Virus record (IMG/VR): IMGVR_UViG_3300043543_000740
Strand: one strand, 5' to 3'
Length of the DNA stretch: 64,000 nucleotides
Source of the DNA: an uncultured virus (IMG/VR IMGVR_UViG_3300043543_000740)
Lineage: Duplodnaviria; Heunggongvirae; Uroviricota; Caudoviricetes
Part shown: in pieces, positions 1,885 through 48,243 of the stretch
How the letters are laid out: every line of letters starts with the position of its first letter
Position numbering within the stretch: position 1 is the stretch's first letter
Translations under genes and position numbers: made by a program
The notes under the pieces: model-generated
Seen by the model: the letters and a program-made list of their open reading frames with translations, nothing else
Databases searched by the model: none
What the model was told of the DNA's origin: nothing

Positions 1885-1947
1885 GCCGAAACGCGGGCTG
1901 GCCCCGCGTCGCGGCGGGTGGTTCCCGCCGCCTGATGATGGCAGCCA
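1885..1947 (+). ncRNA. Type II hammerhead ribozyme HHR1 (predicted cleavage after 1910)
   Basis: GCC-GAAAC-GCGGG/CCCGC-GTC-GCGGCGGG/TGGTT/CCCGCCGC-CTGATGA-T-GGC-AGCCA. Confidence 0.9.
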
Positions 1948-1979
1948 GACCATCGGGAACGCCCCGGGAGAACAACGCC

Positions 1980-2138
1980 ATGACCGAGAAGGACTGGGAC
2001 CTCTTCTGCGAGCTGCTCGAAAGGCTGGTATCGCAGCCGGGCTCCTGGAAGGAGAAGAAGGAAACGGTCGAGGCCGAGGCTTCGCGCCGCGGCGCCGACA
2101 CCGCGCTGGAAGAGTTCGTTGGCTGGTTTTCGGAATGA
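1980..2138 (+). CDS. Small hypothetical protein (52 aa) between two hammerheads
   Basis: GGAG RBS; the stop codon directly precedes HHR2. Confidence 0.65.
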   Translation: MTEKDWDLFCELLERLVSQPGSWKEKKETVEAEASRRGADTALEEFVGWFSE

Positions 2139-2139
2139 A

Positions 2140-2207
2140 GCCGAAACGCCGCAGGTCCACCCTGTGGCGTCGCGGCGGGTGGTTCCCGCCGCCTGATGAT
2201 GGCAGCC
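2140..2207 (+). ncRNA. Type II hammerhead ribozyme HHR2 (predicted cleavage after 2171)
   Basis: Same core; stem III is GCCGCAGG/CCTGTGGC. Confidence 0.9.
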
Positions 2208-2240
2208 CATCCATCGCAACCTCTTTCGAGGAGATTCACC

Positions 2241-2765
2241 ATGAAGAAGGACGAGATCAAGGTCGGCGGAACGTACCTGGCCAAGGTGAGCGACAAGGTT
2301 GTTCCCGTGCGCATCGACGCCGAGAACGCGCACGGCGGCTGGGACGCGACCAATCTGCTGACCGACAAGAAGGTCCGCATCAAGAGCGCCCAGCGCCTGC
2401 GCTGCCCGGCCAACCGCGACGGTTCGCCCCAGGTCCAGCCCGAAGTCCAGGCTCCTAGCAACGACGCTAAGAAGACCGCAAAGGGCAAAGCCAAGAAGAG
2501 TGCCAAGGCCAAGTCCGACGGCGAGGCCAAGGCGAAGAAGGTCGGCTGCCTGGACGCCGCCGCCAAGGTCCTGGCCGAAAACGGGCAGGCGATGAACTGC
2601 CAGGAGATGATCGAGGCGATGGCGACCAAGGGCTATTGGACCAGCCCCGGCGGCAAGACGCCGCACGCGACGCTCTACAGCGCCATCCTCCGAGAGATCA
2701 CCACCAAGGGCCAGGAGTCCCGATTCGTCAAGAGCGAGCGCGGCAAGTTCGCGCTGGCCCGGTAG
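2241..2765 (+). CDS. Lys-rich protein with C-terminal HARE-HTH-like winged helix
   Basis: LDAAAKVL...[16 protein letters not shown]; paralogs at 48269 and 51312. Confidence 0.8.
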   Translation: MKKDEIKVGGTYLAKVSDKVVPVRIDAENAHGGWDATNLLTDKKVRIKSAQRLRCPANRDGSPQVQPEVQAPSNDAKKTAKGKAKKSAKAKSDGEAKAKKVGCLDAAAKVLAENGQAMNCQEMIEAMATKGYWTSPGGKTPHATLYSAILREITTKGQESRFVKSERGKFALAR

Positions 2766-2779
2766 AAACGGAGACCACG

Positions 2780-3139
2780 ATGGACCGCGAAATTCTGAAG
2801 CTGATGGCCCACATCGACCAGACGCGGGCCGACGTGCGGACGTCCCTCGAACGCATGGACCCTGACGACCTGGTTGTGCTGTTCCGCGATTGCACCAGCG
2901 GCCGGCTGGCCGGCATGGATGAGCCGGTGCAGCTGTTGGTCGGCATGCTGGCGGCGATGGCCATCTACGACCTCTGCCAGAGCCAGCAAGACGAGGACGA
3001 CTGGACGCCGCCCGGCCGGGCATGCCCGCACTGCGGCGAGGACGACATCGACCACCTCGTCTGGCTCGACGACGAGAAGGTGCGCTGCACGAGCTGCGGC
3101 ACCGTCTACGATCCGAAACAGCCGGACACGGAAGCGTAG
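2780..3139 (+). CDS. Hypothetical protein with C-terminal Zn ribbon
   Basis: CPHC...CTSC; GGAG RBS. Confidence 0.65.
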   Translation: MDREILKLMAHIDQTRADVRTSLERMDPDDLVVLFRDCTSGRLAGMDEPVQLLVGMLAAMAIYDLCQSQQDEDDWTPPGRACPHCGEDDIDHLVWLDDEKVRCTSCGTVYDPKQPDTEA

Positions 3140-3165
3140 CCCGTCCCGACAACCCTGTCGCCCAC

Positions 3166-3194
3166 GAGACCCCCCAGCGGGGTCTCTTCTTGTT
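3166..3194 (+). terminator. Intrinsic terminator of accessory operon A
   Basis: GAGACCCC-N5-GGGGTCTC followed by TTCTTGTT. Confidence 0.7.
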
Positions 3195-3205
3195 GGTCGC
3201 GTGAT

Positions 3206-3649
3206 TCATCCTGGCACCTCCGACGTAGCGTGGGCTAACGTGGGCGAGCGGTCGGTCCCGGTTGGCGCTGGGTCCGCCTCCGTGGAACCGGACGCGACGT
3301 GGGCGAACGTGGGCGAACCTGTGGCCAAGTCCGGGGCCAGATAGCCTACCGGCTTGCCCAACTCCCGCGCGATGCGGATTTCCGCCTGCACGCCGACACT
3401 CTCCTCCCAGCCGTCGAGCATCAGGACCAGAACCTCGTCGCACCGCTCCAGGAACGCTCGGTCGTACCGCTCCCAGAAGTGCCAGTTGCCCGGCAGGCCG
3501 TGCTGCGCCAGCGGATGGCTGTGGGCGATGGGCGAGAAGACCACCCGGCCGGCGTGGAGCAAGGCGACCGCCGCCTGGCACGCAGCGCGAAACCGCTGTT
3601 CGCGCACCGCCGGGTCCGGGTGCGAGTACGGGCTGGCCAGGTAGATCAT
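3206..3649 (-). CDS. DUF1937 / nucleoside deoxyribosyltransferase-like protein
   Basis: MIYLASPYSH...FSPIAHSH...GWEESVGVQAEI. Confidence 0.8.
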   Translation of the reverse strand: MIYLASPYSHPDPAVREQRFRAACQAAVALLHAGRVVFSPIAHSHPLAQHGLPGNWHFWERYDRAFLERCDEVLVLMLDGWEESVGVQAEIRIARELGKPVGYLAPDLATGSPTFAHVASGSTEADPAPTGTDRSPTLAHATSEVPG

Positions 3650-4032
3650 TTTTCCTCCTTCACCTCATTCGGCTGCCGAGGACCGATGTCGATGAGCGAG
3701 GCCGGCAGACGGTCAGCATCGGCCCGCGCCTCCGTCTCCAGTGCCGCCAGCAGGTTCCAGGCGGCCGCCACGAGGTGGTCCTCGTCGTCCCGGCCCGCCA
3801 GGTAAGCGAACAGGTGTCGCAGGGCCGAGTCCACGAAGCGGCTGAGCGGGATACCCTGCTCCCAGTTCCGGTCGCCGTACTTGGCTGCGCCTTTCTCGAA
3901 GTGCCGGGCCAGGCGGGTCAAAGCCAGCGCGGGAAGCAAGTCGAACCGACCCTTGCCAGCTTGCCGGTCCCGCACCGCCCCGGTCGCAAACTGCTGGCGC
4001 TCGCCCGAGTCGTGCAGCGTGTAGTCGCGCAT
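3646..4032 (-). CDS. dATP/dGTP diphosphohydrolase-domain (DUF5664-like) protein
   Basis: GKGRFDLLP, GAAKYGDRNWEQG and EDHLVAAAWN motifs. Confidence 0.8.
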   Translation of the reverse strand: MRDYTLHDSGERQQFATGAVRDRQAGKGRFDLLPALALTRLARHFEKGAAKYGDRNWEQGIPLSRFVDSALRHLFAYLAGRDDEDHLVAAAWNLLAALETEARADADRLPASLIDIGPRQPNEVKEEK

Positions 4033-5342
4033 CACGACGATCTCCTTTCTGGCCTCTTGCCCGTAAACTTCTCGAACCTCTGGACGATCACGTCGCAGTA
4101 CAGCGGGTCCAACTCCATAAGGAACGCCTTGCGGCCTGTTTGCTCCGCGCCAATGAGCGTCGAGCCGCTGCCGCCGAAGAGATCGATCACGTTCTCACCG
4201 GCCCGCGACGAATACTGCATCGCCCGCACGGCCAGCTCGACCGGCTTCTCGGTCAGGTGGACCATGCTCTGCGGGTTGACCTTCTTGACCGACCAGACAT
4301 CGACGGCATTGTTTGGTCCGAGAAAGACATGCGCCGCGCCTTCGCGCCAGCCGTAGAAGCACCACTCATGATTGCCCATGAAGTCTTTGCGCGTGAGGAC
4401 CGGATGCTCCTTGACCCAGATGATGGCCTGCGAGAAATACAGCTCGCACGCCTTCAGCACGGGCGGGTAGTTGGCCACGTTCGCGTAACCGCCCCAGATG
4501 TAGAATGCTCGGCCGGGCTGCAGCACGCGGGCGAGGTTGCCGAACCAGGCGTGCAGCATCTGGTCGAACGCTTCCTCGGAGACGAAGTCGTTGGCCAGTG
4601 GCCGGTCCTTCGGCCGCAGCTTCTTGTGCGTCGGCGCCTTTGGCCCCTGACGCGCGACATCGAAGGACTGGTGATGGTTTTGCGGCTGGGTGTTGGAGTC
4701 GCCGAACGATGACAGGCCGGCGGCGATGGCGTTGTTGGAGCGCGGTTCGACCTTCACGTTGTACGGCGGGTCGGTGTTGACCAGGTGGATCGCCGCGCCG
4801 CCGAGTAGCCGGTCCACGCCCTCCGGCTTGCCGCTGTCGCCGCACAGCAGGCGGTGGTCGCCGAGCAGCCACAGGTCGCCGGGGCGCGTGGTCGCCTCAT
4901 CGGGCGGCGCGGGCACCTCGTCGGGGTCGGTCAGCCCGTCCTTGACGCCGGGGTCGAGCAGCCGGGCCAGCTCGTCCTGGTCGAAACCGAGCAGGCCCAG
5001 GTCGAAGTCGCACGCCTTCAGCTCGCCCAGCTCGATGGGGAGCAGGTCGTAGTTCCAGTCGGACAGCTCGGCGCTCTTGTTGTCGGCGATGCGGTAGGCC
5101 CGGATCTGCTCGGGCGTCAGGTCCGTGGCGACGTGGACCGGCACCTTCTCCAGGCCCAGCTTCTGTGCGGCCTTGTAGCGCGTGTGGCCGACGACGATGA
5201 CGCCCTCGGCGTCCACCACGATGGGCTGGCGGAAGCCGAACTCGCGGAGCGACGCGGCGACGGCGTCCACCGCGTCGTCGTTGACGCGGGGGTTGTTCGG
5301 GTAGGGCTTGATCTCGGACAGCTTCCGCAGTTCGATCTTCAT
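4032..5342 (-). CDS. ParB-N domain + N6/N4 DNA methyltransferase (intact)
   Basis: PYPNNPR/VVGHTR ParB motifs; TDPPY and DLFGGSGS MTase motifs. Confidence 0.92.
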   Translation of the reverse strand: MKIELRKLSEIKPYPNNPRVNDDAVDAVAASLREFGFRQPIVVDAEGVIVVGHTRYKAAQKLGLEKVPVHVATDLTPEQIRAYRIADNKSAELSDWNYDLLPIELGELKACDFDLGLLGFDQDELARLLDPGVKDGLTDPDEVPAPPDEATTRPGDLWLLGDHRLLCGDSGKPEGVDRLLGGAAIHLVNTDPPYNVKVEPRSNNAIAAGLSSFGDSNTQPQNHHQSFDVARQGPKAPTHKKLRPKDRPLANDFVSEEAFDQMLHAWFGNLARVLQPGRAFYIWGGYANVANYPPVLKACELYFSQAIIWVKEHPVLTRKDFMGNHEWCFYGWREGAAHVFLGPNNAVDVWSVKKVNPQSMVHLTEKPVELAVRAMQYSSRAGENVIDLFGGSGSTLIGAEQTGRKAFLMELDPLYCDVIVQRFEKFTGKRPERRSS

Positions 5343-5363
5343 GGCTCTCTGCTCCGTCGAAAG

Positions 5364-5448
5364 TTCGGACCTCGAAAACAAACTCTGCTTACCTTGGCGG
5401 CTGTTCCCGCCGGGGTCAAAAAGCGCAATAAGGCCCGGAAGTACCTAT
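5364..5448. other. Conserved non-coding site, candidate cos/packaging site
   Basis: AAACTCTGC..TGTTCC..GGAAGTACCTAT has the same spacing as 61281-61365. Confidence 0.45.
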
Positions 5449-12645: not shown

Positions 12646-14688
12646 TCAGGTCTCCCAGGTCACGTCCTGGGCGGGCGAGTAGCAGGGATTGAGGCCGCAA
12701 CACAGGCATGGTGATTTGAGGTGGTCCGCGAGGCGCTTATCGAACTGGCCAATGTCCTTGACCGCACGCCGAATGGCGTTCCCGACGGCCTTCCGGACTC
12801 GATCACGATCATCCGCATCCTTCCGTATCCGCCCACCAAGCCCCTTGGCTTTGCGAATCTCCTCCATGAACGACTCCATCTCGCCTTGGATGCGACTAAT
12901 GGCGGCGTCATCGCGGTTGGACTTGGCCTCTTCCAGTTCCTCCTTTAATTCCGCGTACCGCGCCTGATACGCGAAAAGAGCGTCTTGATCGATCTTGTCG
13001 CCGGCGCTACCGAGAGAGTAGTTGTCCCTGTTTTGGGAAAGTCGGCATGCCATGACGATTGCAGAGACGGGTGTCCGGGGCTGAGAGAGCAGCATGTGTA
13101 GGTACGCTGCTCCCTTGCTGGGGAGCAAGATGTTCTCGGCGCCCCCGGCAAAGCGGATTTGCCAGACCTGGCCCTTCTTGCGGAAGATGTTGTCACTCGG
13201 CGCCACAGCGGGTTTGGACGGCGGTGGCTTCTTGGGGCCGTTGCCGGAAGCGCTCGCGTCGCAGACGAGTCGCACCAGGCAACTCGGAGGCAGCTCTCGT
13301 TTCCTGATGGCCGGGGCGTACCTGACGATGGCCTGATCAATGACGCCGGTGACTTGCTTGGCGTGCAGCTTGTACAGATCGAATATCTTGATCGCCGTAG
13401 CGTCTGGGCTTCCGTCGAACTGCCGCAGCACGCGCGTCGCTTCGCCGAACCGGCTGAAGAACTTCAAGGCCGTCATCGAGTTGATTTCGTTGGCGGTCTC
13501 CAGATAAGCCGCCAGCATAGTTTTTGGGTCGCCGTCGTTGCGCTCGCCGACGAGCAAATCTACCTTGTATGCTTCAGCCGGGTCATGGGCCTCCACGCCG
13601 GCAGCCAAGACAGCGAACCGACGGTCGATGCACTGCGAGCAGACGCCGCAGTGGGTGTGCTGCTGGGTGATCTCCCATGTGTGGGTGCAGCTCGTCGAAA
13701 ACTTAATCAGGTCGCCACAGCCGGCGTCTCCGATCAGCTTGACCACCTCGGTCTTGGTCTTCCAAAGGAATGGATTCTCGACGATGAATGGCTTCGCGGC
13801 CAAGCTGCTGAAGAGCCTGGCGAACCCATTGAGCACTTGCGGGTGCGTGGTGCGCGTTGCCCGCGCACCGACAACTTGCGCGGAGGGCGGTAGGTTGAGG
13901 CTGACGACGCCGTTCTCGTAGAACCTTATCCGGTTCAGCCCGATCATCGTGGCGATGGTCGCGGCAAGCGATGCGTAAACGAAGGATCGGGATCGCTGCG
14001 TGTATTCCCGCCCGAGGCCTTTCTCCTTGTTGATCCGCACAGGGATGTGAAGAGGGTCGTGGCCTTTCGCGTGGCCGTCGAGCAAGTTCAAGAGGTGCCT
14101 GTGGCGCGGCGTGAGTTTCTCGGTGGATCGGTGATTCACCAATAGCACCTTGCGTTTGTCCACGACCGATTCCTTCACGGCCCCGGCTACGGAATCCAGG
14201 CCGCCCGAAAACAACGCGACCTCTTCGACGACGCCGTCGAAAGGTGTGGAGTTGAAATCGAGGTATCCCTGAAGCGAGATGTCCTTCTTCAGGTGCTCGA
14301 ATTCGAAATGGTATTCGTCCTCCGACAAGAAGCTCAACGTGGAGATCAACTCGGACAGCACCGACCTGCTCTTCCAAATATCTGGATTCCGCACAGGAAT
14401 GCGGAAGAACAGCGTTCGCCGCCAGTTCTGGCCGATCTCCCCGCCGCTTTGAATCCCCCCGCCGCCTCGGGTTATCGCTTGGTCCGCGCAGTAGACGTAA
14501 ACCGCAATGTCGATGAGGTCGAGGAAGGCGGTCGGCACGGCCTTGTACATCGCCTTCCGCACGTCCTCGATCTTCAGGTGGACGTTGCTGTGCGGCCCCC
14601 ACATCCGGAGGCGCACCGGATCCTTGTCCCCAACCGAAAGGGAGGCGTCGCCGACGGAACCGCACAGGATGGCGCGTTCATTTGCCAT
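12646..14688 (-). CDS. QueC/QatC-like PP-loop ATPase with C-terminal putative DNA-binding extension
   Basis: LFSGGLDS, QRSRSF, TRTTHP, ENPF and SC..HCGVCSQCIDRR motifs. Confidence 0.85.
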   Translation of the reverse strand: MANERAILCGSVGDASLSVGDKDPVRLRMWGPHSNVHLKIEDVRKAMYKAVPTAFLDLIDIAVYVYCADQAITRGGGGIQSGGEIGQNWRRTLFFRIPVRNPDIWKSRSVLSELISTLSFLSEDEYHFEFEHLKKDISLQGYLDFNSTPFDGVVEEVALFSGGLDSVAGAVKESVVDKRKVLLVNHRSTEKLTPRHRHLLNLLDGHAKGHDPLHIPVRINKEKGLGREYTQRSRSFVYASLAATIATMIGLNRIRFYENGVVSLNLPPSAQVVGARATRTTHPQVLNGFARLFSSLAAKPFIVENPFLWKTKTEVVKLIGDAGCGDLIKFSTSCTHTWEITQQHTHCGVCSQCIDRRFAVLAAGVEAHDPAEAYKVDLLVGERNDGDPKTMLAAYLETANEINSMTALKFFSRFGEATRVLRQFDGSPDATAIKIFDLYKLHAKQVTGVIDQAIVRYAPAIRKRELPPSCLVRLVCDASASGNGPKKPPPSKPAVAPSDNIFRKKGQVWQIRFAGGAENILLPSKGAAYLHMLLSQPRTPVSAIVMACRLSQNRDNYSLGSAGDKIDQDALFAYQARYAELKEELEEAKSNRDDAAISRIQGEMESFMEEIRKAKGLGGRIRKDADDRDRVRKAVGNAIRRAVKDIGQFDKRLADHLKSPCLCCGLNPCYSPAQDVTWET

Positions 14689-15601: not shown

Positions 15602-16009
15602 TTACGTCGAGACCAGTTCCTGCCACATCCGCCGCTGCTTCCGCCAGTCGGGCGTGGAGGCGATCGGTTGCAGCTGCGCGAGGATGATCGGAGCGCGGCC
15701 GGCCTCGATCCGGGGCAGGTTCAGAATCGCCTCCTGGATGTCCGGGGCCAGGTTCAGCAGGTTCATAATCTGGCTAACGCGGGCTCGGGTGACGTGCCCC
15801 AGCCGGCCAAGCTCCGTGTAGCTCTCGATCACCCCGTCGCGGAGCAGCCCGTCGCAACGGATTGCGAGTGCCATCAGCCGCGCCACGCGGGACACCCGTC
15901 CCGGCGCGGCCGGGCGGAACGGCTTCGGGCCGGTCTCCAGCACCTTGCGGCTGCCGCGCCCCTTGCGGTTGAAGTGGACCTCGCACTCGATGGTCAGTGG
16001 CGTCTTCAT
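15602..16009 (-). CDS. Recombinase-associated HTH protein
   Basis: VTRARVSQIMNLLNLAPDIQ; coupled to the recombinase gene. Confidence 0.75.
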   Translation of the reverse strand: MKTPLTIECEVHFNRKGRGSRKVLETGPKPFRPAAPGRVSRVARLMALAIRCDGLLRDGVIESYTELGRLGHVTRARVSQIMNLLNLAPDIQEAILNLPRIEAGRAPIILAQLQPIASTPDWRKQRRMWQELVST

Positions 16010-17598
16010 GCCCGTCTCTCCTCACGCTTGTCGGCCAGCTCGCGGGCCAGCGTCTTGATGCCGGCGGGCCGGAAGGCGATGGCGACCTTCCCCTTCGACC
16101 CGTCGTAGTCCACCTGCTCGACCAGCAGATGCACCACGCGCACCTGCTCGTGCGGCGTCAGCGACCCCCACACCGGGTCGAAGATCGACATCGCCAGGGC
16201 CGCCTCGTCCTCGTCCAAAAGCTGGTGGTGGACGGCGTGGATCTGCTCGCGCAGCTTCCGGACCCGTCCCTCGACCGTGCCGATGCGCTCCTGCAAGTCG
16301 GCGAGGCGGGCGATCACCGAGCCGGTGTCGTCGCCCGGCTTGATCTGGCCCGACAGCGACCGCATCTCGGCGTGCCAGGCGCGGAGGTCCTTCTCCAAAG
16401 CGTGCTGCTCGGTCCCCAGTTCGGCGGCCCGCGCCTCGTCCTGGCGGCGGGCCTCGGCGAGGACTTCTTGCAGCACGCGGGGGTCCTGGCCGATGGTCTT
16501 GATCTGCTTGACGACGAGGTCTTCGATCTGGGCGGCCGGGACCGACTTCGACGGGCAGGTGTGCCAGCCCCGCTTCTGGGCCGACGAGCAGACGTAGTAG
16601 CGGTAGCGCTTGGTCCCCTCGCGCGTCGAGTGCGACGGCGTCATGGCGCAGCCGCAGGGGACGCAGCGGATGATCCCCTTGAGCAAGGCCCCGAACTTGT
16701 TGCGGACGGGTGCGCCGCCGGTGCGCCCGTTCCGCTCCAGCAGCGCCTGGACCTTCTGCCAGACGACCGGATCGACGATGGCCGGGTGCTCGCCGTCGTG
16801 GACCTCGTCCTTGTAGCGCACCTTGCCGATGTACGCGACGTTGGTCAGCAGCTTGTAAAGACTGGTGCGGGTGAACGGCTTGCCGCCCTTCCGCGGCCCC
16901 TTCCGCGTGGCCCACTCCTTGTTCTTCCAGCCGCGCTTTTCGAGTTCCAGCACCACCGGCAACAGCGACTCGTGGTCCAGGTAGAGCTTGAAGATGGCGC
17001 GGACACGCTCGGCCTCGGCCGGGTTGACGACCAGGCGGAATCCCTGCGGGTCCACGTCGTAGCCGAGGATGGGCCAGCCGCCTGCCCACTTCCCCTTGCG
17101 GCGCGTGGCGGCGATCTTGTCCCGCGTCCGTTCGCTGATGATCTCACGCTCGAACTGGGCGAACGAGAGCAGCACGTTCAGCACCAGCCGGCCCATGCTG
17201 GTCGCGGTGTTGAACTGTTGCGTCACGGAGACGAACGACACCTTGTGCTTCTCGAACGTCTGCATCATCTGGGCGAAGTCGAGCAGGCTGCGGCTGAGGC
17301 GGTCCACCTTGTAGACCACGACCGCGTCGATCTTGCCCGCCTCGATGTCGGCCATCAGGCGCTGGAGCGCCGGCCGCTCCATGTTGCCGCCCGTGAAGCC
17401 GCCATCGTCGTAGCGTTCGGCCAGCACCGTCCACCCCTCGCCGGCCTGGCTGCGGACGAAAAGCTCGCCCGCCTCCCGTTGGGCGTCAAGGCTGTTGAAC
17501 TCCTGCTCCAGGCCCTCCTCGGTGGACTTGCGGGTGTAGACCGCGCACCGGACCAGCGGCACGGTCGCCGGCGTCGCGGTCCTCGCCTTCCTCTTCAT
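16006..17598 (-). CDS. Large serine recombinase
   Basis: YTRKS, DRLSR, recombinase domain and a CVPC..C Zn ribbon. Confidence 0.95.
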   Translation of the reverse strand: MKRKARTATPATVPLVRCAVYTRKSTEEGLEQEFNSLDAQREAGELFVRSQAGEGWTVLAERYDDGGFTGGNMERPALQRLMADIEAGKIDAVVVYKVDRLSRSLLDFAQMMQTFEKHKVSFVSVTQQFNTATSMGRLVLNVLLSFAQFEREIISERTRDKIAATRRKGKWAGGWPILGYDVDPQGFRLVVNPAEAERVRAIFKLYLDHESLLPVVLELEKRGWKNKEWATRKGPRKGGKPFTRTSLYKLLTNVAYIGKVRYKDEVHDGEHPAIVDPVVWQKVQALLERNGRTGGAPVRNKFGALLKGIIRCVPCGCAMTPSHSTREGTKRYRYYVCSSAQKRGWHTCPSKSVPAAQIEDLVVKQIKTIGQDPRVLQEVLAEARRQDEARAAELGTEQHALEKDLRAWHAEMRSLSGQIKPGDDTGSVIARLADLQERIGTVEGRVRKLREQIHAVHHQLLDEDEAALAMSIFDPVWGSLTPHEQVRVVHLLVEQVDYDGSKGKVAIAFRPAGIKTLARELADKREERRA

Positions 17599-18092: not shown

Positions 18093-18126
18093 CGTTGGCT
18101 CCCTTGTCTCAGGGTCTCGGAAATCG

Positions 18127-18327
18127 TCAACCGACGTGGACACTGAGCGGGTTTTCGGGAACAGCTTCAAGGGGCTTTTCCGCTGTGTCGGGCAGGATTT
18201 CCGGGGCGGGAGCGGACGCGAGCGCGGCGCGGTCGCGGAGCCGCCGCAGGCCGGCGGCCAGGATCGCCGCGACCTCGCGGCGGCGCTCGTCGGGGGTCAA
18301 CAGGGAGGGGTCGAGATCGGGTCGCAT
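18127..18327 (-). CDS. Small hypothetical protein
   Basis: LTPDERRREVAAILAAGL; upstream of the DUF2924 gene. Confidence 0.55.
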   Translation of the reverse strand: MRPDLDPSLLTPDERRREVAAILAAGLRRLRDRAALASAPAPEILPDTAEKPLEAVPENPLSVHVG

Positions 18328-18528
18328 GGCGGGCCATCTCCGAGGTGCCCACAGCGACCTACGCGGCGCGGCCGGTCGGCTGTCTGGCGGGAACGGAACG
18401 GGACGCACTACCCATAGGCCTTTGCGGACGCCGTTCGAGATGACGCATCGGGGTCCGAGAGGAAACGGGTTGGTAACTTTTCGGGGGGTGGTAACCAGAG
18501 ACTCTGAGAGTTTTGGCGGGAGAGTTTC

Positions 18529-18565
18529 GGGTCCGACAGGAACCTTCAAGGTTCCTGTCGGACCC
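18529..18565. repeat. Perfect 18-bp inverted repeat
   Basis: GGGTCCGACAGGAACCTT-C-AAGGTTCCTGTCGGACCC. Confidence 0.85.
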
Positions 18566-19153
18566 CGATGGCTCTCTCTCGGAACGGAGAGCGCGGGGCC
18601 AGGGGATGGGTCGTCGGAAACCGTGCGGGAAAGGCGGAAAACGCGAAACGCCGAGAGCAGCCGCTCTCGGCGTTTCCTGGTAACTCCTGTGTCCCCTTCG
18701 CTCGAAGGCGAAGGGGCAAGCTCCCCGTGCGGAACACTCTTCGTAACAAACCTCACCCTGACGCGCGCGAGAGCATCGCTTCTGCACGCAGCAAACGCAG
18801 TAATTTCTAGGGCTTGGTCGATCTGACCGAAGGAAGAGTCTGACTGACCCGATATGCGACCGTGTTCCTCTCGTGTCCCAAGATCACGTCTTGCGAACAC
18901 TCCAGCGCGCGCGACCTGTCAACCAGTCGGTGTTCGTTCCGCAGATGTGCAACGACCGCACTGACTGATCCGATGCTGCTCAGCCGCTCCGCGCCTCACG
19001 TCGGGCGCATCCCGCACCACGCGCGCTCCGCACCCATGTCCCCGCCGACACCCCCGAAAACCGCTCTCTCCCCGAGGCTGTCAGCGCTGTACGGAAACTA
19101 TGTCCCACCCCCGAAATGTTGGCGTTCCACCGCACTCAGACAGTTGTCACTCC

Positions 19154-32513: not shown

Positions 32514-32518
32514 CGCGT

Positions 32519-34165
32519 TCAGACCTCCACCACACTGGATGACGGACCCGGCAGCCCGTCACCGGAGGACGAACCCGAGTCGCCGTCGCTCCCGCTACTC
32601 CCGTCCGAGGAGCTTCCGCTCGACCCCGAGGATGATCCACTGTCGCTCGACGATGACACATCGATCGCGCTGGACGACGGGTCGCCACTGCCGCTCGGCG
32701 TGTCCGCCGCGCTGGAGGTCGGCAGGTCGATCCCGCTGGACGAGTGGACGACCCACGAAGACGTGTCGTCCGCCGCGCTCGACGACGGGAGCGGGGCGCT
32801 GGAGGACGCCTCGTCCCCACTGCCGCTCGGCCCGCTGGACGTGTCGATCCCGCTCGAGGAGTGGGTCACGCCGGACGAGCCGTCGTCCACGGCGCTCGAC
32901 GAGGGGAGCGGGCCGCCGGACGATGAGTCGTCGGCGCTACTGCTCGGCGGCGGGAGTGAGGAGCTGCTCTCGTATCCGGACGAGCTGCTGTCGTAACCGC
33001 TCGATGATCCGCTCGACGAGACACCGGATGAGCCGCTGCTCGACCCGCTGGTGCAACCCTCGCAGCAGCAACACCCGGCCGGGTGGCTGAACTGCCACGC
33101 GCCTTCTTCCTTGGTCAGCGCCCCGTTTTCGATCCGCAGCGTGATCGTCCGTGTGTAGACGTTGAGCTTGCCGGCCTCGCACCGGACGTCGGTCTCGGTG
33201 ACCGTGACGCCGGGCGGGCCGCTCGACGACCCGCCGCTCGAACTGCCGGAGGAACTGCCCGAGGAGGAACCCGACGACGATCCGGACGAAGATCCCGAGG
33301 ACGAATCCGAGGAGGATCCCGACGACGAGGAATCGCAGCACCCCTCGCCGAGGGCCAGGACTTCCCACTTGCGGCTGTCCGCGTAGTACTTGGCGACGCC
33401 GTAGGTGCCGGCCGGGACCGAGGTCGCCGGCGGGCAGCCGCAGCCGCTCCCCGACGAACCCATCGCCTTGCAGAGTTCCGGGCAGACGACGCCGATGGCG
33501 TCGTGGACGGTGATCGTCGCCTCGACGGGGCACCACTTGCCGTCCCGGAACACGACCAGCTTCGCCGGCGCGGAGCCGCACCGCGCCAGCGACCCGGTCA
33601 GCCGGAACCGGACGTGGTCCTCCCCGTCCCCCAGCCGCACGACGGCCCACCGCTCGACCGACCCGGTCTCCTCGACCCACAGCACCCGCGCGGACCCCGC
33701 CGGAGCGTTGCGGAGCGATTGCGTGCCGCCCGGCCCGACCTCGGCGAACTCGTATCGGTAACTGGGATCGACCCCCAACCGCACCGGCGTTACCCCCGCG
33801 ACGACCCCCCGGCCGATGGCACCGGCGTCGAGCGGGTCGAGCAGTACCGCGAACCGACCGACGGCCGGTGGGTCTTCGGGTACGCCGCCGTCGAACGTGA
33901 CGCGGGTCTGGAACTCCGACAGGTTGTCCAGCGGCCCGACGATCGGGCCGGATAGCGCGAGGACCGCGAACCGGGAGAGCGCCACGCCGGTCGTGTTCCG
34001 CACCTTCACGATGCCCGTCTGGCGGAACAGGTCGGCCTCGTCGCGGTCGGTCTCGTGCAGCCGGCCGCGAGTTTTCCGGGCGGCCTCGAGGAACGCGTTG
34101 TACGCCGCCGCCGGGATCTCCAGCCGCTGGCCGGGCGTGACGCTCTTGAACGGGTCGCCGGGCAC
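32519..34165 (-). CDS. Tail-associated protein with Cys clusters and long Ser/Gly-rich tail
   Basis: Second gene after the tape measure; SSSG repeats. Confidence 0.7.
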   Translation of the reverse strand: MPGDPFKSVTPGQRLEIPAAAYNAFLEAARKTRGRLHETDRDEADLFRQTGIVKVRNTTGVALSRFAVLALSGPIVGPLDNLSEFQTRVTFDGGVPEDPPAVGRFAVLLDPLDAGAIGRGVVAGVTPVRLGVDPSYRYEFAEVGPGGTQSLRNAPAGSARVLWVEETGSVERWAVVRLGDGEDHVRFRLTGSLARCGSAPAKLVVFRDGKWCPVEATITVHDAIGVVCPELCKAMGSSGSGCGCPPATSVPAGTYGVAKYYADSRKWEVLALGEGCCDSSSSGSSSDSSSGSSSGSSSGSSSGSSSGSSSGGSSSGPPGVTVTETDVRCEAGKLNVYTRTITLRIENGALTKEEGAWQFSHPAGCCCCEGCTSGSSSGSSGVSSSGSSSGYDSSSSGYESSSSLPPPSSSADDSSSGGPLPSSSAVDDGSSGVTHSSSGIDTSSGPSGSGDEASSSAPLPSSSAADDTSSWVVHSSSGIDLPTSSAADTPSGSGDPSSSAIDVSSSSDSGSSSGSSGSSSDGSSGSDGDSGSSSGDGLPGPSSSVVEV

Positions 34166-44613: not shown

Positions 44614-46881
44614 TCAGCGTCGTTTCGCCTTCTGGAGTTCTGCGAAGCTCACCCGCTCGCGTTTGGGCGCGGGCTTCACGTCCGTGCCCGGCAGGGAGCA
44701 GCCCTGCATCGACGCGGCCACGGCGCAGCCGACGACGCCGTCGAGCCAGTGGTTGTCGCTCCGCTCGGGCCGCATCTTCCACTCGTCCACCGTGCGCCCG
44801 CGCCCCTCGGTCTTCACGCGGTACTCGGCGGTCAGGTGGTCCGCGAAGAGCCGGTGCGTCTCGGCCCGGTCGCCGAAGAGCGACAGGCACCCGCGGTCGC
44901 CCAGCACCACCGCCAGCCGCGCCTGCACGAACGACTTCCAGTAGTTGGTGTCGAACAGGACGTGCCGGACGGCCCGCTTCCCCTGCACGTTCGGGACGCG
45001 CCAGTGGTGGCCGACGCGGTCGCCCGGCCGCCGCTTGTACTCGCTGAACGGCTGGCTCGACGCGCCGACAAACCGTCCGTGGGCCGGCGTCACGACGGAG
45101 GCGTGGGCGGACTCGCGGCAGAACTGGTACACGACGTCCGTTGAGGTGCCCCAGTTGGCGTCGATCAGGCAGCGCTCGATTCGCAGGACCGCGCCGTCGT
45201 CGCGCGGCCAGTCGCGGCCGAGGAGCGCGGCCGTCAACTTCTCCAGCCCCTGGTAGATTGCCCCCTCGATCCCCGCCGCGCCGGTCGCGACGGCCAGCGT
45301 CGGGTTCGCCTCGCGGAGAGTGAAGTACGGCCGCCGCTGGTCGGGCCAGGTGCCGTAATCCAGGACGTAGCCGGTGAAATCGTCCTCCCAGCCGCACGCG
45401 ACCCAGAACAGCAGGCTCCCCTGCACGTCCACGAACGCGGTCAGCCGCCCGCAGCCGATCGGCACCTCGCCGCGGCCGCGCCGGTTGAACTTACCCGCGA
45501 TCTGGTCGGCGGTGAGCTCGTCGTCGCCGGCGACCTCCTCGAGGAGTGGCTCGTTCTGGTACTCGGCGAAGAAGGCGGCCTCGTCCTGGAGCCGCAGGTT
45601 CATCGCGTGCTGGATGGCCGACAGTTCGTCGTGGTTGAACCGGGCCGGCCAGGCGACGCGCGACCCGGCGTCCATCGCCTCCCGATGGGCGCGGTAGAAC
45701 TCGGTCGCCTCGACGCCCTCACGCCCCTCCCGCAGGCTCTCGGCGCGGATCTCGGCGTAGCGCTGCCAGAGCTTCTCGTCGGCCGGGAACGAGTAGACCA
45801 TCTTGGTCCGCTCGCCGTTCCACTCCGGGTGTTTGTCGCGCGAGAGGATGTTGTCCGCCATGTCGCCGGGGCGGATGACCGTACACGGCATGATCCCGGA
45901 GATCTTCCGCCCCGGCCCAGCCAGCCCCAGCACCGCGCCGGCGAGGATGCTCTCGCGGGTGGCGCACTGGGACAGCGACCGCGCCGACTCGTCGGTCTGC
46001 GGGTCGTCGAGCACGACGAGCGACGGCCGCACGGTCTTGCCGTCGGCCCGCTTGTACTTCATGCCACGGATGCGGCCGGTGATCCCCGCCACCTTGACGA
46101 TCGCGCCGCTGGCGGTGCTGCCGGGGATCGTCGGCAGCACGACTTCACGCGCCGTCCAGCCGATGTGGGTCCGCTCGCCCTTGTAGAGCTGGCCGTTGCA
46201 GCGGTTGGCGATCCCGTCGAGGCAGTGGATCGGGTAGACGACCTCCGGGAAGTCTTCGAGCAGCAGGTCGTTGCCGTCGAGCTCCATCTTGATGGCGTCG
46301 AGCATGTCCATCGCGTGCCCCTCGTCCGACCCGATCAGGCAGACGAACTCGCGGTGCCCGTAGAGCACCGCCCAGATGCACGCGCACTCCGAGATCGAAC
46401 TCTTCCCCGAGCCCCGCGGCATCGCCATCGCGAACAGGCCGCCGCGCAGGACTGCCTGCTCGATCCGGGCAATCACCTTCAGGTGGTCGTCGGACCACGG
46501 CAGCGAGAACGTCAGCGGGAAGTAGCTGTCGCAGAAGAACCGGAAGTCCGACGCGGCCCGCTCCTTCCGCTCGCGGTTCACCACGTCCGGTAGCTCACCA
46601 ATATCCCGCCCCGCCAGCGACAGCGCGAGGTTCCGCGCCCTCGACCGGGTCTTCAGCTCCTCGTAGGGGTCGCCGGCCGGTTCCGGTTTCGGGGCGTGGC
46701 GCTGCGAGACGAGCCACGCGACGTAGCGGACGAGGTCGACGTGCTTGCCGTCGCCGACCCGCATGCCGGCGCGGGAGCGGTGACGGTAGAGCTGCCGCTC
46801 GCTGATGACCTCGCCGAGCGGAGTCGAGTTCAGCAACCGGCAGAGCTCCGAGGGCTTCAGCCGCCGCGGGTCAGTCGCCAT
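44614..46881 (-). CDS. Terminase large subunit (GpA-like) with N-terminal HTH extension
   Basis: MPRGSGKS, VVLDDPQ, EYQNEP, VDVQ and NHWLD motifs. Confidence 0.92.
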   Translation of the reverse strand: MATDPRRLKPSELCRLLNSTPLGEVISERQLYRHRSRAGMRVGDGKHVDLVRYVAWLVSQRHAPKPEPAGDPYEELKTRSRARNLALSLAGRDIGELPDVVNRERKERAASDFRFFCDSYFPLTFSLPWSDDHLKVIARIEQAVLRGGLFAMAMPRGSGKSSISECACIWAVLYGHREFVCLIGSDEGHAMDMLDAIKMELDGNDLLLEDFPEVVYPIHCLDGIANRCNGQLYKGERTHIGWTAREVVLPTIPGSTASGAIVKVAGITGRIRGMKYKRADGKTVRPSLVVLDDPQTDESARSLSQCATRESILAGAVLGLAGPGRKISGIMPCTVIRPGDMADNILSRDKHPEWNGERTKMVYSFPADEKLWQRYAEIRAESLREGREGVEATEFYRAHREAMDAGSRVAWPARFNHDELSAIQHAMNLRLQDEAAFFAEYQNEPLLEEVAGDDELTADQIAGKFNRRGRGEVPIGCGRLTAFVDVQGSLLFWVACGWEDDFTGYVLDYGTWPDQRRPYFTLREANPTLAVATGAAGIEGAIYQGLEKLTAALLGRDWPRDDGAVLRIERCLIDANWGTSTDVVYQFCRESAHASVVTPAHGRFVGASSQPFSEYKRRPGDRVGHHWRVPNVQGKRAVRHVLFDTNYWKSFVQARLAVVLGDRGCLSLFGDRAETHRLFADHLTAEYRVKTEGRGRTVDEWKMRPERSDNHWLDGVVGCAVAASMQGCSLPGTDVKPAPKRERVSFAELQKAKRR

Positions 46882-47083
46882 GCGCGTCCTCCGCCACCAG
46901 CCACGCCGCGTAGTGAACCAGGTTGATCGTCCCGTCCGCATTGGTCGGCGCACCGGCGTCGATGTCCGCCCGGATCATCGCCTCCGTCACGCCGAACCCG
47001 CCCACCCGCGCGAGCATGCGCGCGGCGTCCGCGACGGGCATCGCGGCGGGGTTGAGCACGGGCTTCGCCTCGTCGGGCGGCAT
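46871..47083 (-). CDS. Small HTH protein, terminase small subunit-like
   Basis: Overlaps the terL start; paralog of 1-216. Confidence 0.65.
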   Translation of the reverse strand: MPPDEAKPVLNPAAMPVADAARMLARVGGFGVTEAMIRADIDAGAPTNADGTINLVHYAAWLVAEDAHGD

Positions 47084-47106
47084 GTCGGAAACCTCGAAAA
47101 CTCTCA

Positions 47107-47156
47107 GGAATTCGGGCCGGATTCGCTTCCCTGTCCCGCGAACCGGCTGTAACTGT
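47107..47156 (+). promoter_or_regulatory. Conserved upstream motif (putative promoter)
   Basis: GGAATTCGGGCCGGA..GCGAACCGGCTGTAACTG, shared with 51671-51723. Confidence 0.45.
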
Positions 47157-47206
47157 CATCACACGTTCGCGGGGTGCGGACGCGACGCAAACCATTACGG
47201 GAGAAC

Positions 47207-47530
47207 ATGATGCGCACCGAAGATGCGGAGTTCGGCGACGACCTGAGTTTCACCCACCTCAACCCCCGCCCCGGCTGCGCGGGCACCTGGATCGCCGGCC
47301 GGGTCGCGGGGCACCGGTTCGAGGCGCTGGTCTTCCGCGACCACGCCGAGAACCCGGCCTGGGAGTTGGGCGACAGCGGCATCTCGAAGCTGTGGGTGCA
47401 GCGCCTGGCCGACCGGGCGGTGGTGTTCAACTGGGACCGCGGCCCCGACGTACCCGCGGCCGACGCGGCTGCGGCGCGGGTGGTGGACTTCCTCGCCGCG
47501 GGCCTGGCCGAACACGTCTTCGGGTGCTGA
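47207..47530 (+). CDS. Hypothetical protein
   Basis: GGAG RBS; ISKLWV..FNWDRG; the stop abuts HHR3. Confidence 0.75.
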   Translation: MMRTEDAEFGDDLSFTHLNPRPGCAGTWIAGRVAGHRFEALVFRDHAENPAWELGDSGISKLWVQRLADRAVVFNWDRGPDVPAADAAAARVVDFLAAGLAEHVFGC

Positions 47531-47531
47531 A

Positions 47532-47600
47532 GCCGAAACGCCTTCCCCACGCGGGAAGGTGTCGCGGCGGGTGGTTCCCGCCGCCTGATGACGGCAGCCA
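47532..47600 (+). ncRNA. Type II hammerhead ribozyme HHR3 (predicted cleavage after 47563)
   Basis: Intact core; stem III is GCCTTCCC/GGGAAGGT. Confidence 0.9.
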
Positions 47601-47617
47601 AACAACGGGGGACGAGC

Positions 47618-47869
47618 ATGTCGGCACAAACGGAGCGCAAGGTGACGGACGCGGCCGCGGCGATGCTGGTCGGCCGGCGGGTGGTGCGGGTCGGGTACAT
47701 GCCGGCCGCGGAGGCGGCGGACCTGGGGTGGTCGCACCGGCCGGCCGTGCTGGAGTTCGACGACGGGACCGTCGCCTACGCCGCCTGCGACGAGGAGGGG
47801 AACGACGCGGGCGTGCTGTTCGTGGAGGCGGGGCGAGGCGACCTCTGCCTCGGGCGGTTCCCGACCTGA
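47618..47869 (+). CDS. Hypothetical protein
   Basis: 83 aa with DEEGNDAG; the stop abuts HHR4. Confidence 0.7.
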   Translation: MSAQTERKVTDAAAAMLVGRRVVRVGYMPAAEAADLGWSHRPAVLEFDDGTVAYAACDEEGNDAGVLFVEAGRGDLCLGRFPT

Positions 47870-47933
47870 GCCGAAACGCGGGACGTCCCGCGTCGCCCGG
47901 CCGTGGCGGGCCGGGCCTGATGACGGCAGCCAC
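47870..47933 (+). ncRNA. Type II hammerhead ribozyme HHR4 (predicted cleavage after 47894)
   Basis: Intact core; divergent but paired stem I GCCCGGCC/GGCCGGGC; loop GTGGC pairs with tail GCCAC. Confidence 0.9.
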
Positions 47934-47954
47934 CGAACCCCGAGGAGCGGAACG

Positions 47955-48182
47955 ATGAACCCGCCGAAGCCGGTGACGATCGAGTTGGAGGTGACCGAGT
48001 TCCCCACCGCCCGCGAGGCGATCGAGCACGCCCGCGCGCACGGCGGCCGGGCGATCCGGCTGGGCGGCCGGAGCCTGGTGGTCCGCGACCAGGACGCGGA
48101 GTGGTTGGCGACCGCCCGGGTGGAGTTCGCGTACCTGTGCGACCACCACGGGCAGATCGTGACGGTCCCGGTCAACGATTGA
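47955..48182 (+). CDS. Hypothetical protein
   Basis: GAGGAG RBS; the stop abuts HHR5. Confidence 0.7.
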
Positions 48183-48183
48183 A

Positions 48184-48243
48184 GCCGAAACGCCCCCGCG
48201 GGCGTCGCGGCGGGTGGCTCCCGCCGCCTGATGATGGCAGCCA
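48184..48243 (+). ncRNA. Type II hammerhead ribozyme HHR5 (predicted cleavage after 48206)
   Basis: Intact core; stem III GCCC/GGGC; loop TGGCT pairs with tail AGCCA. Confidence 0.9.

What the first reader, a model, noticed from the sequence alone, without database searches (positions are those of the whole stretch)
1885..48243. Five hammerhead ribozymes punctuate the prophage accessory operons gene by gene
Seen: five intergenic elements (1885, 2140, 47532, 47870, 48184) all read GCC-GAAAC-[stem III]-GTC-[stem I]-CTGATGA-N-GGC. Stem III differs between copies in length and sequence but always pairs. Each element starts 0-1 nt after a stop codon and ends shortly before the next RBS. Established: CUGAUGA, GAAA and GUC form the hammerhead core, and this permutation with open stem II is type II. 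Inference: the polycistronic mRNA cuts itself into single-gene units with 5'-OH hairpin-protected ends, a protein-free processing system for phage accessory genes. Bacterial and phage hammerheads are known; this stop-codon-coupled array in two prophages is the unusual part.
Basis: partly seen in the sequence, partly recalled or inferred. Interest (0 to 1): 0.95.

Follow-up and report, generated by a model that had tools for sequence, protein, structure and literature searches.

The report
Hammerhead ribozymes between prophage genes
Five genuine-looking self-cutting hammerhead RNAs sit between the small accessory genes of two related prophages, most likely cutting one long message into separately protected single-gene messages, a layout already described and tested in other prophages in 2011.

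Summary
Rfam's Hammerhead_II model (RF02276, cut-off 37 bits) matches at 1884-1950, 2139-2211, 47531-47603, 47869-47935 and 48183-48246, all on the + strand, at 46-61 bits. All five have an intact core, paired stems I and III, and a 4-5 bp pseudoknot between loop I and the 3' tail. Each starts 0-1 nt after a stop codon.

- Clustered hammerheads flanking single prophage genes, read as mRNA processing, were reported and cleaved in vitro and in vivo by Perreault et al. 2011 (PMC3088659, passages read).
- Stop-codon abutment is a family trait. In 70 of 107 unique phage copies from IMG/VR, an ORF of at least 50 codons ends within 1 nt, against 2-3% at control sites.
- This scan has noted the same layout before on other DNA.

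What is added here:
- The host is a planctomycete, and the two prophages are syntenic relatives.
- A hammerhead directly precedes a conserved HARE-HTH gene in 25 of 31 related IMG/VR contigs.
- A relative lacks two [gene + ribozyme] units, with the breakpoints inside the ribozyme.

No RNA data were available, so cleavage is inferred. This is a new member of a known kind, of modest interest.

The parts
1884..1950 (+). Hammerhead 1 (type II). Cleavage predicted after C1910. Stem III 7 bp, stem I 8 bp, pseudoknot UGGUU/AGCCA.
   Evidence: Rfam RF02276 48.1 bits; parse
2139..2211 (+). Hammerhead 2 (type II). Cleavage predicted after C2171. Stem III 10 bp. Directly precedes the HARE-HTH gene.
   Evidence: Rfam 46.0 bits; parse
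47531..47603 (+). Hammerhead 3 (type II). Cleavage predicted after C47563. Stem III 10 bp. The extra nucleotide after CUGAUGA is C.
   Evidence: Rfam 48.6 bits. The minimum-energy fold is the three-way junction.
47869..47935 (+). Hammerhead 4 (type II). Carries a second stem I allele (GCCCGGCC/GGCCGGGC) and the pseudoknot GUGGC/GCCAC. Cleavage predicted after C47894. The A of the stop codon is model position 1.
   Evidence: Rfam 61.0 bits. The minimum-energy fold is the three-way junction.
48183..48246 (+). Hammerhead 5 (type II). Cleavage predicted after C48206. Stem III 6 bp. Directly precedes the HARE-HTH gene.
   Evidence: Rfam 53.0 bits; parse
308..1213 (+). Amidoligase_2 gene, first gene of operon 1 that lies whole in the window. 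An ORF open at its 5' end, 1-300, lies before it.
   Evidence: Pfam PF12224 E 1e-21; PHROG amidoligase
1227..1883 (+). Glutamine amidotransferase gene. Its TAA stop lies 1 nt before hammerhead 1's stem II.
   Evidence: Pfam GATase_6 E 2e-15
1980..2138 (+). 52-aa gene of no known family, flanked by hammerheads 1 and 2. The predicted excised RNA is 1911-2171, 261 nt.
   Evidence: ORF and start. GC3 is 0.81 for the longer ORF 1935-2138 in this frame. No Pfam or PHROG match.
2241..2765 (+). HARE-HTH protein, 174 aa, with a Lys/Ala-rich middle part
   Evidence: Pfam PF05066 E 6e-11. 59% identical over 121 aa to the 142-aa protein of operon 2.
2780..3139 (+). 119-aa gene, last of operon 1
   Evidence: ORF. 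Homologues stand after HARE-HTH in relatives.
3166..3186 (+). Terminator-like hairpin that ends operon 1, in the gap where it converges with the minus-strand replication genes
   Evidence: 1 site found; shuffles give 2.1, so weak on its own. The region is homologous to 48715-48815.
47207..47530 (+). DUF7678 gene, 107 aa, first gene of operon 2. It diverges from the terminase gene.
   Evidence: Pfam PF24726 E 4e-10
47618..47869 (+). 83-aa gene of no known family, between hammerheads 3 and 4. Absent from relative L120.
47955..48182 (+). 75-aa gene of no known family, between hammerheads 4 and 5. Absent from L120. Homologues occur in L136, L139 and L153.
48269..48697 (+). HARE-HTH protein, 142 aa, last gene of operon 2
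   Evidence: Pfam PF05066 E 2e-10
48723..48743 (+). G+C-rich 8-bp hairpin followed by a T-rich run, after operon 2. It faces the convergent DUF1937 gene (48766-49191, minus strand).
   Evidence: Read by eye. DUF1937 gene, Pfam E 7e-23.

Best explanation
The five elements are functional type II hammerhead ribozymes of the pseudoknot kind. They are built into the intergenic spacers of the + strand accessory operons of two related planctomycete prophages. Both operons sit in the same syntenic slot, between the terminase gene and the end of the replication module.

As the operon is transcribed, each ribozyme folds and cuts itself after C17.
- The upstream piece keeps its stop codon. It ends 27-35 nt later in the G+C-rich stem III hairpin, with a 2',3'-cyclic phosphate.
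- The downstream piece begins with a 5'-hydroxyl directly on the stem I hairpin. It carries its own ribosome site 22-37 nt further on.
- Only the 3-bp stem II holds the two pieces together, so they part and the cut is final.

The result is a set of single-gene messages. Their stability and translation no longer depend on their neighbours. In particular, the conserved HARE-HTH gene is insulated from whatever variable cargo lies upstream.

Shown here: the family membership, the anatomy, and the conservation of the ribozyme-HARE-HTH unit. Inferred: co-transcription, cleavage, end protection and insulation.
For: - Family. All five score above Rfam's cut-off. They have intact core nucleotides, paired stems and a 4-5 bp pseudoknot. 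The count far exceeds chance: 5 against 0.39 expected.
- Structure kept under change. Among 26 unique planctomycete copies, stem III is 5-11 bp and pairs in all of them, and is almost never the same sequence. The pseudoknot changes on both sides: UGGUU/AGCCA, UGGCU/AGCCA, GUGGC/GCCAC, UUGGCU/AGCCAA and UGGUU/AACCA.
- Operon context. The flanking + strand ORFs have coding composition and ribosome sites. Both operons end in a hairpin.
- Conservation. A hammerhead stands directly before a HARE-HTH homologue in 25 of 31 related IMG/VR contigs, while the gene upstream varies. Rfam finds one upstream of the HARE-HTH homologue in 6 of 14 planctomycete genome loci chosen by that protein alone.
- Precedent. 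Three such prophage arrays cleaved in vitro at all sites, and one also in vivo (PMC3088659). Three type II copies next to phage-like genes were active in vivo in D. vulgaris (PMC8782182).
Against: - There is no RNA evidence, so neither transcription nor cleavage is shown.
- All five carry an extra nucleotide (U or C) between A9 and G10.1. The same kind of insertion moderately lowers the rate constant in the CChMVd (+) hammerhead (PMC1636495, passage).
- For hammerheads 1, 2 and 5, the plain minimum-energy fold is not the hammerhead fold. That program cannot see the pseudoknot.
- Three copies have a downstream CCAUC that could pair with G8-A9-U-G10.1-G10.2 and hide stem II.
- No sigma-70-like promoter was found. 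This says little for a planctomycete.
Confidence: 0.75

Rival explanations
1. Translation-coupled or otherwise conditional cleavage. The stop codon overlaps or touches the ribozyme's first nucleotide. A terminating ribosome therefore covers stem II's 5' strand, G12-A14 and the start of stem III. Under this reading, translation of the upstream gene sets when, or whether, the ribozyme folds and cuts.
For: - Abutment is strong and general. In IMG/VR, 70 of 107 unique copies lie within 1 nt of an ORF end, against 2-3% at control sites. In planctomycete copies it is 17 of 26.
- In 58 of the 107, the stop codon shares a base with the ribozyme.
- The A before stem II is kept even where no stop is near: 29 of 37.
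- A possible core-hiding hairpin occurs in 13 of 17 copies with the extra U.
Against: - Plain genome compaction explains the same spacing, because the 3' side is equally tight. Start codons peak 17-26 nt after stem II.
- No compaction control on ribozyme-free gene junctions was run.
- The CCAUC hairpin shows no covariation. None of the 5 copies with extra A or C has the matching complement. It may simply be shared ancestry.
- The 2011 arrays cleaved in vitro without ribosomes.
Confidence: 0.1
2. The elements matter chiefly at the DNA level. Their near-identical 45-nt halves are repeats at which recombination adds, removes or swaps [gene + ribozyme] units. The RNA activity is secondary, or simply travels along.
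For: - Relative L120 is collinear with the window at 87-88% identity but lacks 47600-48180. Its single hammerhead has hammerhead 3's stem III and hammerhead 5's 3' tail and ribosome site.
- Stem I plus core is letter-identical in 11 of 26 planctomycete copies. It is also present in 35 IMG/VR stretches whose flanking proteins are only 50-90% identical.
- The cargo upstream of the ribozyme differs from phage to phage.
- Prophage A encodes an AAA_24 protein, a DUF669 protein and RusA. Reading these as a recombination set is from recall.
Against: - Only one clean breakpoint was mapped. The second comparison (L122/L129 against prophage A) is too diverged to place the joints.
- An intact core in 26 of 26 copies, with compensatory changes in stem III and the pseudoknot, shows selection on the RNA and not only on a DNA repeat.
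- Recombination at any repeat is expected and need not be a function.
Confidence: 0.1
3. Circular messages. A gene flanked by two ribozymes is released with a 5'-OH and a 2',3'-cyclic phosphate. Its two ends can re-form one hammerhead through stem II, which would allow self-ligation or ligation by RtcB into a circular mRNA that exonucleases cannot attack.
For: - The geometry allows it. The excised 261-, 331- and 312-nt pieces carry complementary ribozyme halves with the same stem II.
Against: - Perreault et al. looked for spliced or circular products and found none.
- A 3-bp stem II favours release over ligation.
- No ligase gene was seen in the window.
Confidence: 0.03
4. Inactive relics: repeats that still look like hammerheads but no longer cut.
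For: - The extra core nucleotide is present in all five.
- Three of the five have non-hammerhead minimum-energy folds.
Against: - All conserved core positions are intact in all five copies and in 21 further planctomycete copies.
- The extra nucleotide is itself the common state: 21 of 26 here, and more than 116 IMG/VR stretches match a pattern that requires it.
Confidence: 0.02

Closest known systems
Clustered hammerhead ribozymes flanking prophage genes: the triple arrays of Agrobacterium tumefaciens, Azorhizobium caulinodans and Clostridium scindens (Perreault et al. 2011, PMC3088659; passages read)
   Same: Several hammerheads, type II among them, flank single genes or short gene blocks in prophages. 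They have the loop I / 3' tail pseudoknot. The proposed role is to cut long phage transcripts into single-gene mRNAs. The flanked genes are variable.
   Different: - The host phylum here is Planctomycetota, by the relatives' record titles.
- The last ribozyme always leads a HARE-HTH gene.
- That paper does not mention stop codons (0 occurrences).
- Nothing was assayed here.
Type II hammerheads loc 1-3 of Desulfovibrio vulgaris (Olzog et al. 2021, PMC8782182; passages read)
   Same: Type II copies lie next to hypothetical and phage-like genes. Two of them are about 310 nt apart, beside a helix-turn-helix gene. All were shown to cut in vivo and in vitro.
   Different: A different host and different genes. 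That work was an activity survey, not an analysis of layout.
CChMVd (+) viroid hammerhead with an extra A between A9 and G10.1 (PMC1636495 passage, which cites De la Pena and Flores 2001; the 2001 paper itself was not read)
   Same: One extra nucleotide at the same place in the core, in a natural and active ribozyme.
   Different: That is a type III viroid ribozyme. Here the extra base is U or C, in a type II phage ribozyme with a 3-bp stem II.
RiboJ, a synthetic ribozyme insulator (recalled, from no call)
   Same: It works like this. A self-cutting hammerhead placed before a gene removes the variable upstream RNA, so that expression no longer depends on context.
   Different: RiboJ is engineered from a satellite RNA ribozyme. 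The present elements are natural, and their insulating effect is untested.
Integron gene cassettes (as a likeness only)
   Same: There is a variable run of small, promoterless genes, each with a conserved folded repeat at its boundary. Units are gained and lost at that repeat.
   Different: There is no integron integrase or attC site here. The repeat is a ribozyme. Exchange would be by ordinary homologous recombination and has been seen at one joint only.

Membership tests
Hammerhead ribozyme, type II (Rfam RF02276) | Score at or above the curated gathering score (37 bits) over the full model | tested here: met
   46.0-61.0 bits, model positions 1-66 of 66, for all 5
Hammerhead ribozyme, type II (Rfam RF02276) | Core nucleotides C3 U4 G5 A6 N7 G8 A9, G12 A13 A14, the pair A15.1-U16.1, and H17 at the cleavage site | tested here: met
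   CUGAUGA, GAAA, an A...U closing pair and GUC in 5 of 5
Hammerhead ribozyme, type II (Rfam RF02276) | Three helices around the core, with stems I and III closed by loops and stem II open | tested here: met
   Stem I is 8 bp, stem III 6-10 bp, stem II GCC/GGC with open ends. Hammerheads 3 and 4 give this junction as the minimum-energy fold.
Hammerhead ribozyme, type II (Rfam RF02276) | Pseudoknot of four or more pairs between loop I and the tail 3' of stem II (said of the majority of type II copies in PMC3088659) | tested here: met
   5, 4, 5, 5 and 5 pairs in the window. Changes on both sides occur among 26 planctomycete copies.
Hammerhead ribozyme, type II (Rfam RF02276) | G10.1 follows A9 directly | tested here: not met
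   One extra U (3 copies) or C (2 copies) lies between them. This is a common natural variant: 21 of 26 planctomycete copies, and more than 116 IMG/VR stretches matched a pattern that requires it. There is an active precedent in CChMVd.
Hammerhead ribozyme, type II (Rfam RF02276) | Mg2+-dependent self-cleavage after position 17 | not testable with these tools
Clustered prophage hammerheads (Perreault et al. 2011) | Two or more hammerheads on one strand that flank single genes or short gene blocks within a prophage | tested here: met
   There are 2 copies 255 nt apart and 3 copies within 716 nt. Phage replication, packaging and integrase genes surround them.
Clustered prophage hammerheads (Perreault et al. 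2011) | All ribozymes lie on one transcript that is cut at each site | not testable with these tools
   Same strand, tight spacing, no terminator-like site between copies on the + strand, and a hairpin after each operon. There are no RNA data.

The most novel reading that the evidence does not exclude
The hammerheads double as the joints of a cassette system in a hypervariable slot of a planctomycete phage family. Recombination between their near-identical 45-nt halves would add or remove [gene + ribozyme] units in front of a fixed HARE-HTH gene. Each unit would bring its own RNA cut and end-hairpins, so any newly acquired cargo is expressed without disturbing its neighbours.
Probability: 0.25. 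Interest if true: 0.6.

Novelty: new member of a known kind. Interest (0 to 1): 0.3.

Why it matters
The biological purpose of bacterial and phage hammerheads is still called open in a 2019 review (PMC6765202, passage). This window does not settle it, but it gives a clean natural test bed.
- Two related prophages in one genome hold two- and three-ribozyme arrays.
- One gene, HARE-HTH, is led by a ribozyme across a whole phage family.
- A relative differs by exactly two units.

Two regularities seen here did not turn up in the papers searched.
- The stop codon touches or overlaps the ribozyme.
- Cargo changes at the ribozyme.

Both are directly testable, but earlier notes of this scan already report them for other phages.

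Tried and rejected
- The window's own genome is not held. The nearest record, G001, is the same prophage B, so it is not independent.
- Expression. No RNA holder was listed for 47100-48800. Four metatranscriptome runs from the holders' studies laid nothing on it. This says nothing either way.
- Other ribozymes. No other self-cleaving ribozyme, and no other Rfam family, was found in the window at E<=1.
- Promoters. The scans found no sigma-70-like site, which is uninformative for this phylum.
- Small genes. The 52-, 83- and 75-aa genes and both HARE-HTH proteins have no PHROG match. The three small genes have no Pfam match either.
- A general link between hammerheads and HARE-HTH was rejected. 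None of 75 genes downstream of hammerheads in mostly A+T-rich IMG/VR phages has that domain. They are mostly small unknowns, plus Mu transposase, HTH proteins, a MazF-like toxin, an AcrIC5-like protein and a C5 methylase.
- Arrays in the sampled family. In 101 genomes of L120's taxonomic family, 12 had a hit and none of the listed hits lay in tandem. Only 45 candidates per genome were scored, so this is a lower bound.
- Second breakpoint. The attempt to place one (L122/L129 against prophage A) failed for divergence.
- Literature. Searches for the stop-codon rule and for ribozyme-bounded cassettes found nothing on phage hammerheads. The library lacks most subscription journals, and no supplements were read.
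- Failed calls. Searches failed on term format, and on a handle format. Each was corrected and re-sent.

Full report
**1. The observation**

Rfam's covariance model for the type II hammerhead (RF02276, gathering score 37 bits) matches five places on the + strand, each over the whole model:
- 1884-1950 (48.1 bits)
- 2139-2211 (46.0 bits)
- 47531-47603 (48.6 bits)
- 47869-47935 (61.0 bits)
- 48183-48246 (53.0 bits)

A permissive search of the whole window (E up to 1) adds nothing, neither further hammerheads nor any other RNA family. A loose core pattern finds exactly these five. Shuffles expect 0.39, and none of 100 shuffles reaches five.

My own parse gives, for every copy, A-GCC-GAAA-[stem III]-GUC-[stem I]-CUGAUGA-N-GGC-AGCC.
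- Stem III is 7, 10, 10, 7 and 6 pairs.
- Stem I is 8 pairs.
- The pseudoknot between loop I and the tail after stem II is 5, 4, 5, 5 and 5 pairs.

The upstream stop codons end 1, 1, 1, 0 and 1 nt before stem II. The predicted cleavage sites are after 1910, 2171, 47563, 47894 and 48206. The next start codons follow 22-37 nt after stem II, each behind a GGAG-like site.

**2. Context**

The window is 62-71% G+C.

*Operon 1 (+ strand):*
- Amidoligase_2 (308-1213)
- GATase_6 (1227-1883)
- hammerhead 1
- a 52-aa gene (1980-2138)
- hammerhead 2
- a 174-aa HARE-HTH protein (2241-2765)
- a 119-aa gene (2780-3139)
- a terminator-like hairpin (3166-3186)

It converges on a minus-strand phage replication module. 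That module holds DUF1937, a dGTP diphosphohydrolase-like protein, ParB-methylase, Prim-Pol, a helicase, RusA, DUF669, AAA_24 and a sigma factor. A large serine recombinase follows at 16009-17598.

*Operon 2 (+ strand):*
- it diverges from the large terminase gene (44617-46953, minus strand)
- DUF7678 (47207-47530)
- hammerhead 3
- an 83-aa gene
- hammerhead 4
- a 75-aa gene
- hammerhead 5
- a 142-aa HARE-HTH protein (48269-48697)
- a hairpin at 48723-48743
- a convergent DUF1937 gene

The two regions are syntenic relatives at 70-82% nucleotide identity. The two HARE-HTH proteins are 59% identical over 121 residues. 'Two prophages' is therefore right.

All 14 relatives of the HARE-HTH protein found in genome contigs are Planctomycetota assemblies, by their record titles. 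The IMG/VR record G001 holds the same three hammerheads. It is prophage B itself and not an independent witness.

**3. What is already known**

Perreault et al. 2011 (PMC3088659; passages read) first described natural type II hammerheads and their pseudoknot. [quoted passage not shown] They showed cleavage at all sites for three arrays in vitro, and for one in vivo.

Olzog et al. 2021 (PMC8782182; passages) showed three type II copies next to phage-like genes to be active in Desulfovibrio vulgaris. Two of those lie close together.

A 2019 review (PMC6765202; passage) still calls the purpose undefined.

The kind of element and its interpretation are therefore in print.

**4. The stop-codon rule is general**

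| Measure | Result |
|---|---|
| Unique copies with at least 160 nt upstream | 107 |
| ORF of 50+ codons ending 1 nt inside the ribozyme (TAG sharing the G of stem II) | 30 |
| Ending flush | 28 |
| Ending 1 nt before | 12 |
| Total within 1 nt | 70 of 107 |
| Same measure at random positions | 2.2% |
| Same measure at A\|GC sites | 3.2% |
| Copies with both stems of 4+ pairs | 104 of 107 |
| Within 1 nt among those | 68 of 104 |
| A before stem II, all copies | 94 of 107 |
| A before stem II where no stop is near | 29 of 37 |

The A before stem II therefore belongs to the ribozyme. The downstream start codon peaks 17-26 nt after stem II. Among 26 unique planctomycete copies, 17 lie within 1 nt and 25 within 8 nt of an ORF end.

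Caveats:
- Many IMG/VR loci come from one metagenome. They were de-duplicated only by exact identity, so they are not independent.
- I ran no control on ribozyme-free gene junctions, so plain compaction is not excluded.

The papers read do not mention the rule: 'stop codon' occurs 0 times in PMC3088659 and in PMC8782182. Two library searches found nothing on it. Earlier notes of this scan report the same layout in other phages.

**5. What is particular to this lineage**

(a) *Core variant.* All five copies carry an extra U or C between A9 and G10.1, as do 21 of the 26 planctomycete copies. A viroid precedent shows such a ribozyme active but somewhat slower.

(b) *Stem I is frozen, stem III is free.* Stem I with its loop is letter-identical in 11 of 26 copies from different assemblies, while stem III almost never repeats. 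A 31-letter pattern over stem I and the core finds 35 IMG/VR stretches.

(c) *A fixed ribozyme-HARE-HTH unit.* Those 35 stretches fall on 33 contigs. One of them is G001 and one stretch could not be parsed, which leaves 31 contigs.
- In 25, the last hammerhead stands directly before a HARE-HTH homologue.
- In 5, another gene follows.
- 1 is cut off by the contig end.
- The gene upstream varies: amidotransferase, DUF7678 or assorted unknowns.
- Only 7 of the 31 have two hammerheads. Three occur only in prophage B and its copy G001.

Starting instead from the protein, Rfam finds a hammerhead upstream of the HARE-HTH homologue in 6 of 14 genome loci, and my parse finds 7.

(d) *A unit-sized indel.* Relative L120 is collinear with the window at 87-88% identity on both sides but lacks 47600-48180, which holds the 83-aa and 75-aa genes. 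Its one hammerhead has hammerhead 3's upstream gene end and stem III. It has hammerhead 5's extra U, tail, ribosome site and HARE-HTH start. The joint therefore lies within the shared stem I and core.

**6. Mechanism**

The best-supported reading is the published one. The ribozymes cut the operon transcript after C17.
- The upstream message keeps its stop codon and ends in the stem III hairpin with a cyclic phosphate.
- The downstream message starts with a 5'-OH on the stem I hairpin.
- The 3-bp stem II lets the products part.

That such ends protect against exonucleases and against 5'-end-dependent RNases follows from general knowledge of bacterial RNA decay. It is inference here. The conserved ribozyme-HARE-HTH unit behind variable cargo suggests insulation of that gene from its upstream context.

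Points against:
- There are no RNA data (no holder).
- The core carries an insertion.
- Three of the five copies have non-hammerhead minimum-energy folds.
- A downstream CCAUC could pair with G8-A9-U-G10.1-G10.2. It is present in 13 of 17 copies with the extra U. None of the 5 copies with extra A or C has the matching complement. This is no covariation, so it may be shared ancestry.

**7. Verdict**

These are real hammerheads in a known arrangement. The planctomycete host, the family-wide ribozyme leader of the HARE-HTH gene and the ribozyme-bounded indel are modest additions. This is a new member of a known kind, with interest of about 0.3.

Noticed in passing
window 49137-61246: Prophage B's ParB-methylase gene appears split by an insert of about 10.6 kb (roughly 49500-60105). 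Prophage A's intact gene matches 49173-49499 and 60106-61059 on either side. The insert carries several genes:
- a large serine recombinase, read in frame into the methylase C-terminus (ORF 49137-51281, minus strand)
- a third HARE-HTH gene (51315-51611)
- an AAA_25 protein
- a second Phage_capsid_4 protein (54263-56152)
- an RHS-repeat protein (56306-59599)

It looks like an integrative, perhaps satellite-like, element lodged inside a prophage gene.
   Followed up: partly
window 1946-1960, 2205-2215, 48241-48252 and related loci: In planctomycete hammerheads with an extra U after CUGAUGA, 13 of 17 have CCAUC starting 2-8 nt into the 3' tail. It is complementary to G8-A9-U-G10.1-G10.2. The pairing would give a 5-bp hairpin that competes with stem II and the pseudoknot. 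None of the 5 copies with extra A or C has the matching complement, and only 4 of 115 IMG/VR copies do. It could be a switch, a post-cleavage refold or just shared ancestry. This is undecided.
   Followed up: partly
window 1908-1942 and loci L120-L188: Stem I, its loop and the core are identical letter for letter across phages whose proteins are only 50-90% identical, while stem III is free to vary. A second stem I allele (hammerhead 4, L122, L129) is found with other neighbouring genes. Base pairing alone does not explain conservation at the sequence level.
   Followed up: partly
window 308-1883, 3209-5381, 12649-14688: Prophage A carries a set of genes with a DNA-modification flavour:
- Amidoligase_2 plus glutamine amidotransferase, inside the ribozyme operon
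- a DUF1937 / nucleoside deoxyribosyltransferase-like protein
- a dATP/dGTP diphosphohydrolase N-terminal domain
- ParB-N6/N4 methylase
- a 680-aa protein with a QueC-like stretch

The HARE-HTH domain has been linked to modified DNA in the literature (recalled, not checked).
   Followed up: no
window 18100-33400: Between the two prophages lie apparent host genes: an rve_3 transposase (19100-20236), a WD40 protein, a 1665-aa protein with nine He_PIG Ig-like repeats (21544-26538) and four glycosyltransferases. G+C drops to 59-65% over 12-26 kb.
   Followed up: no
IMG/VR loci L004-L083: Genes directly downstream of type II hammerheads in other phages are mostly small unknowns. They also include Mu-type transposases (4 of 75), Cro/C1-type HTH proteins, a MazF-like toxin, an AcrIC5-like anti-CRISPR domain, a C5 DNA methylase and LPD25 proteins. 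This fits early or counter-defence cargo.
   Followed up: no
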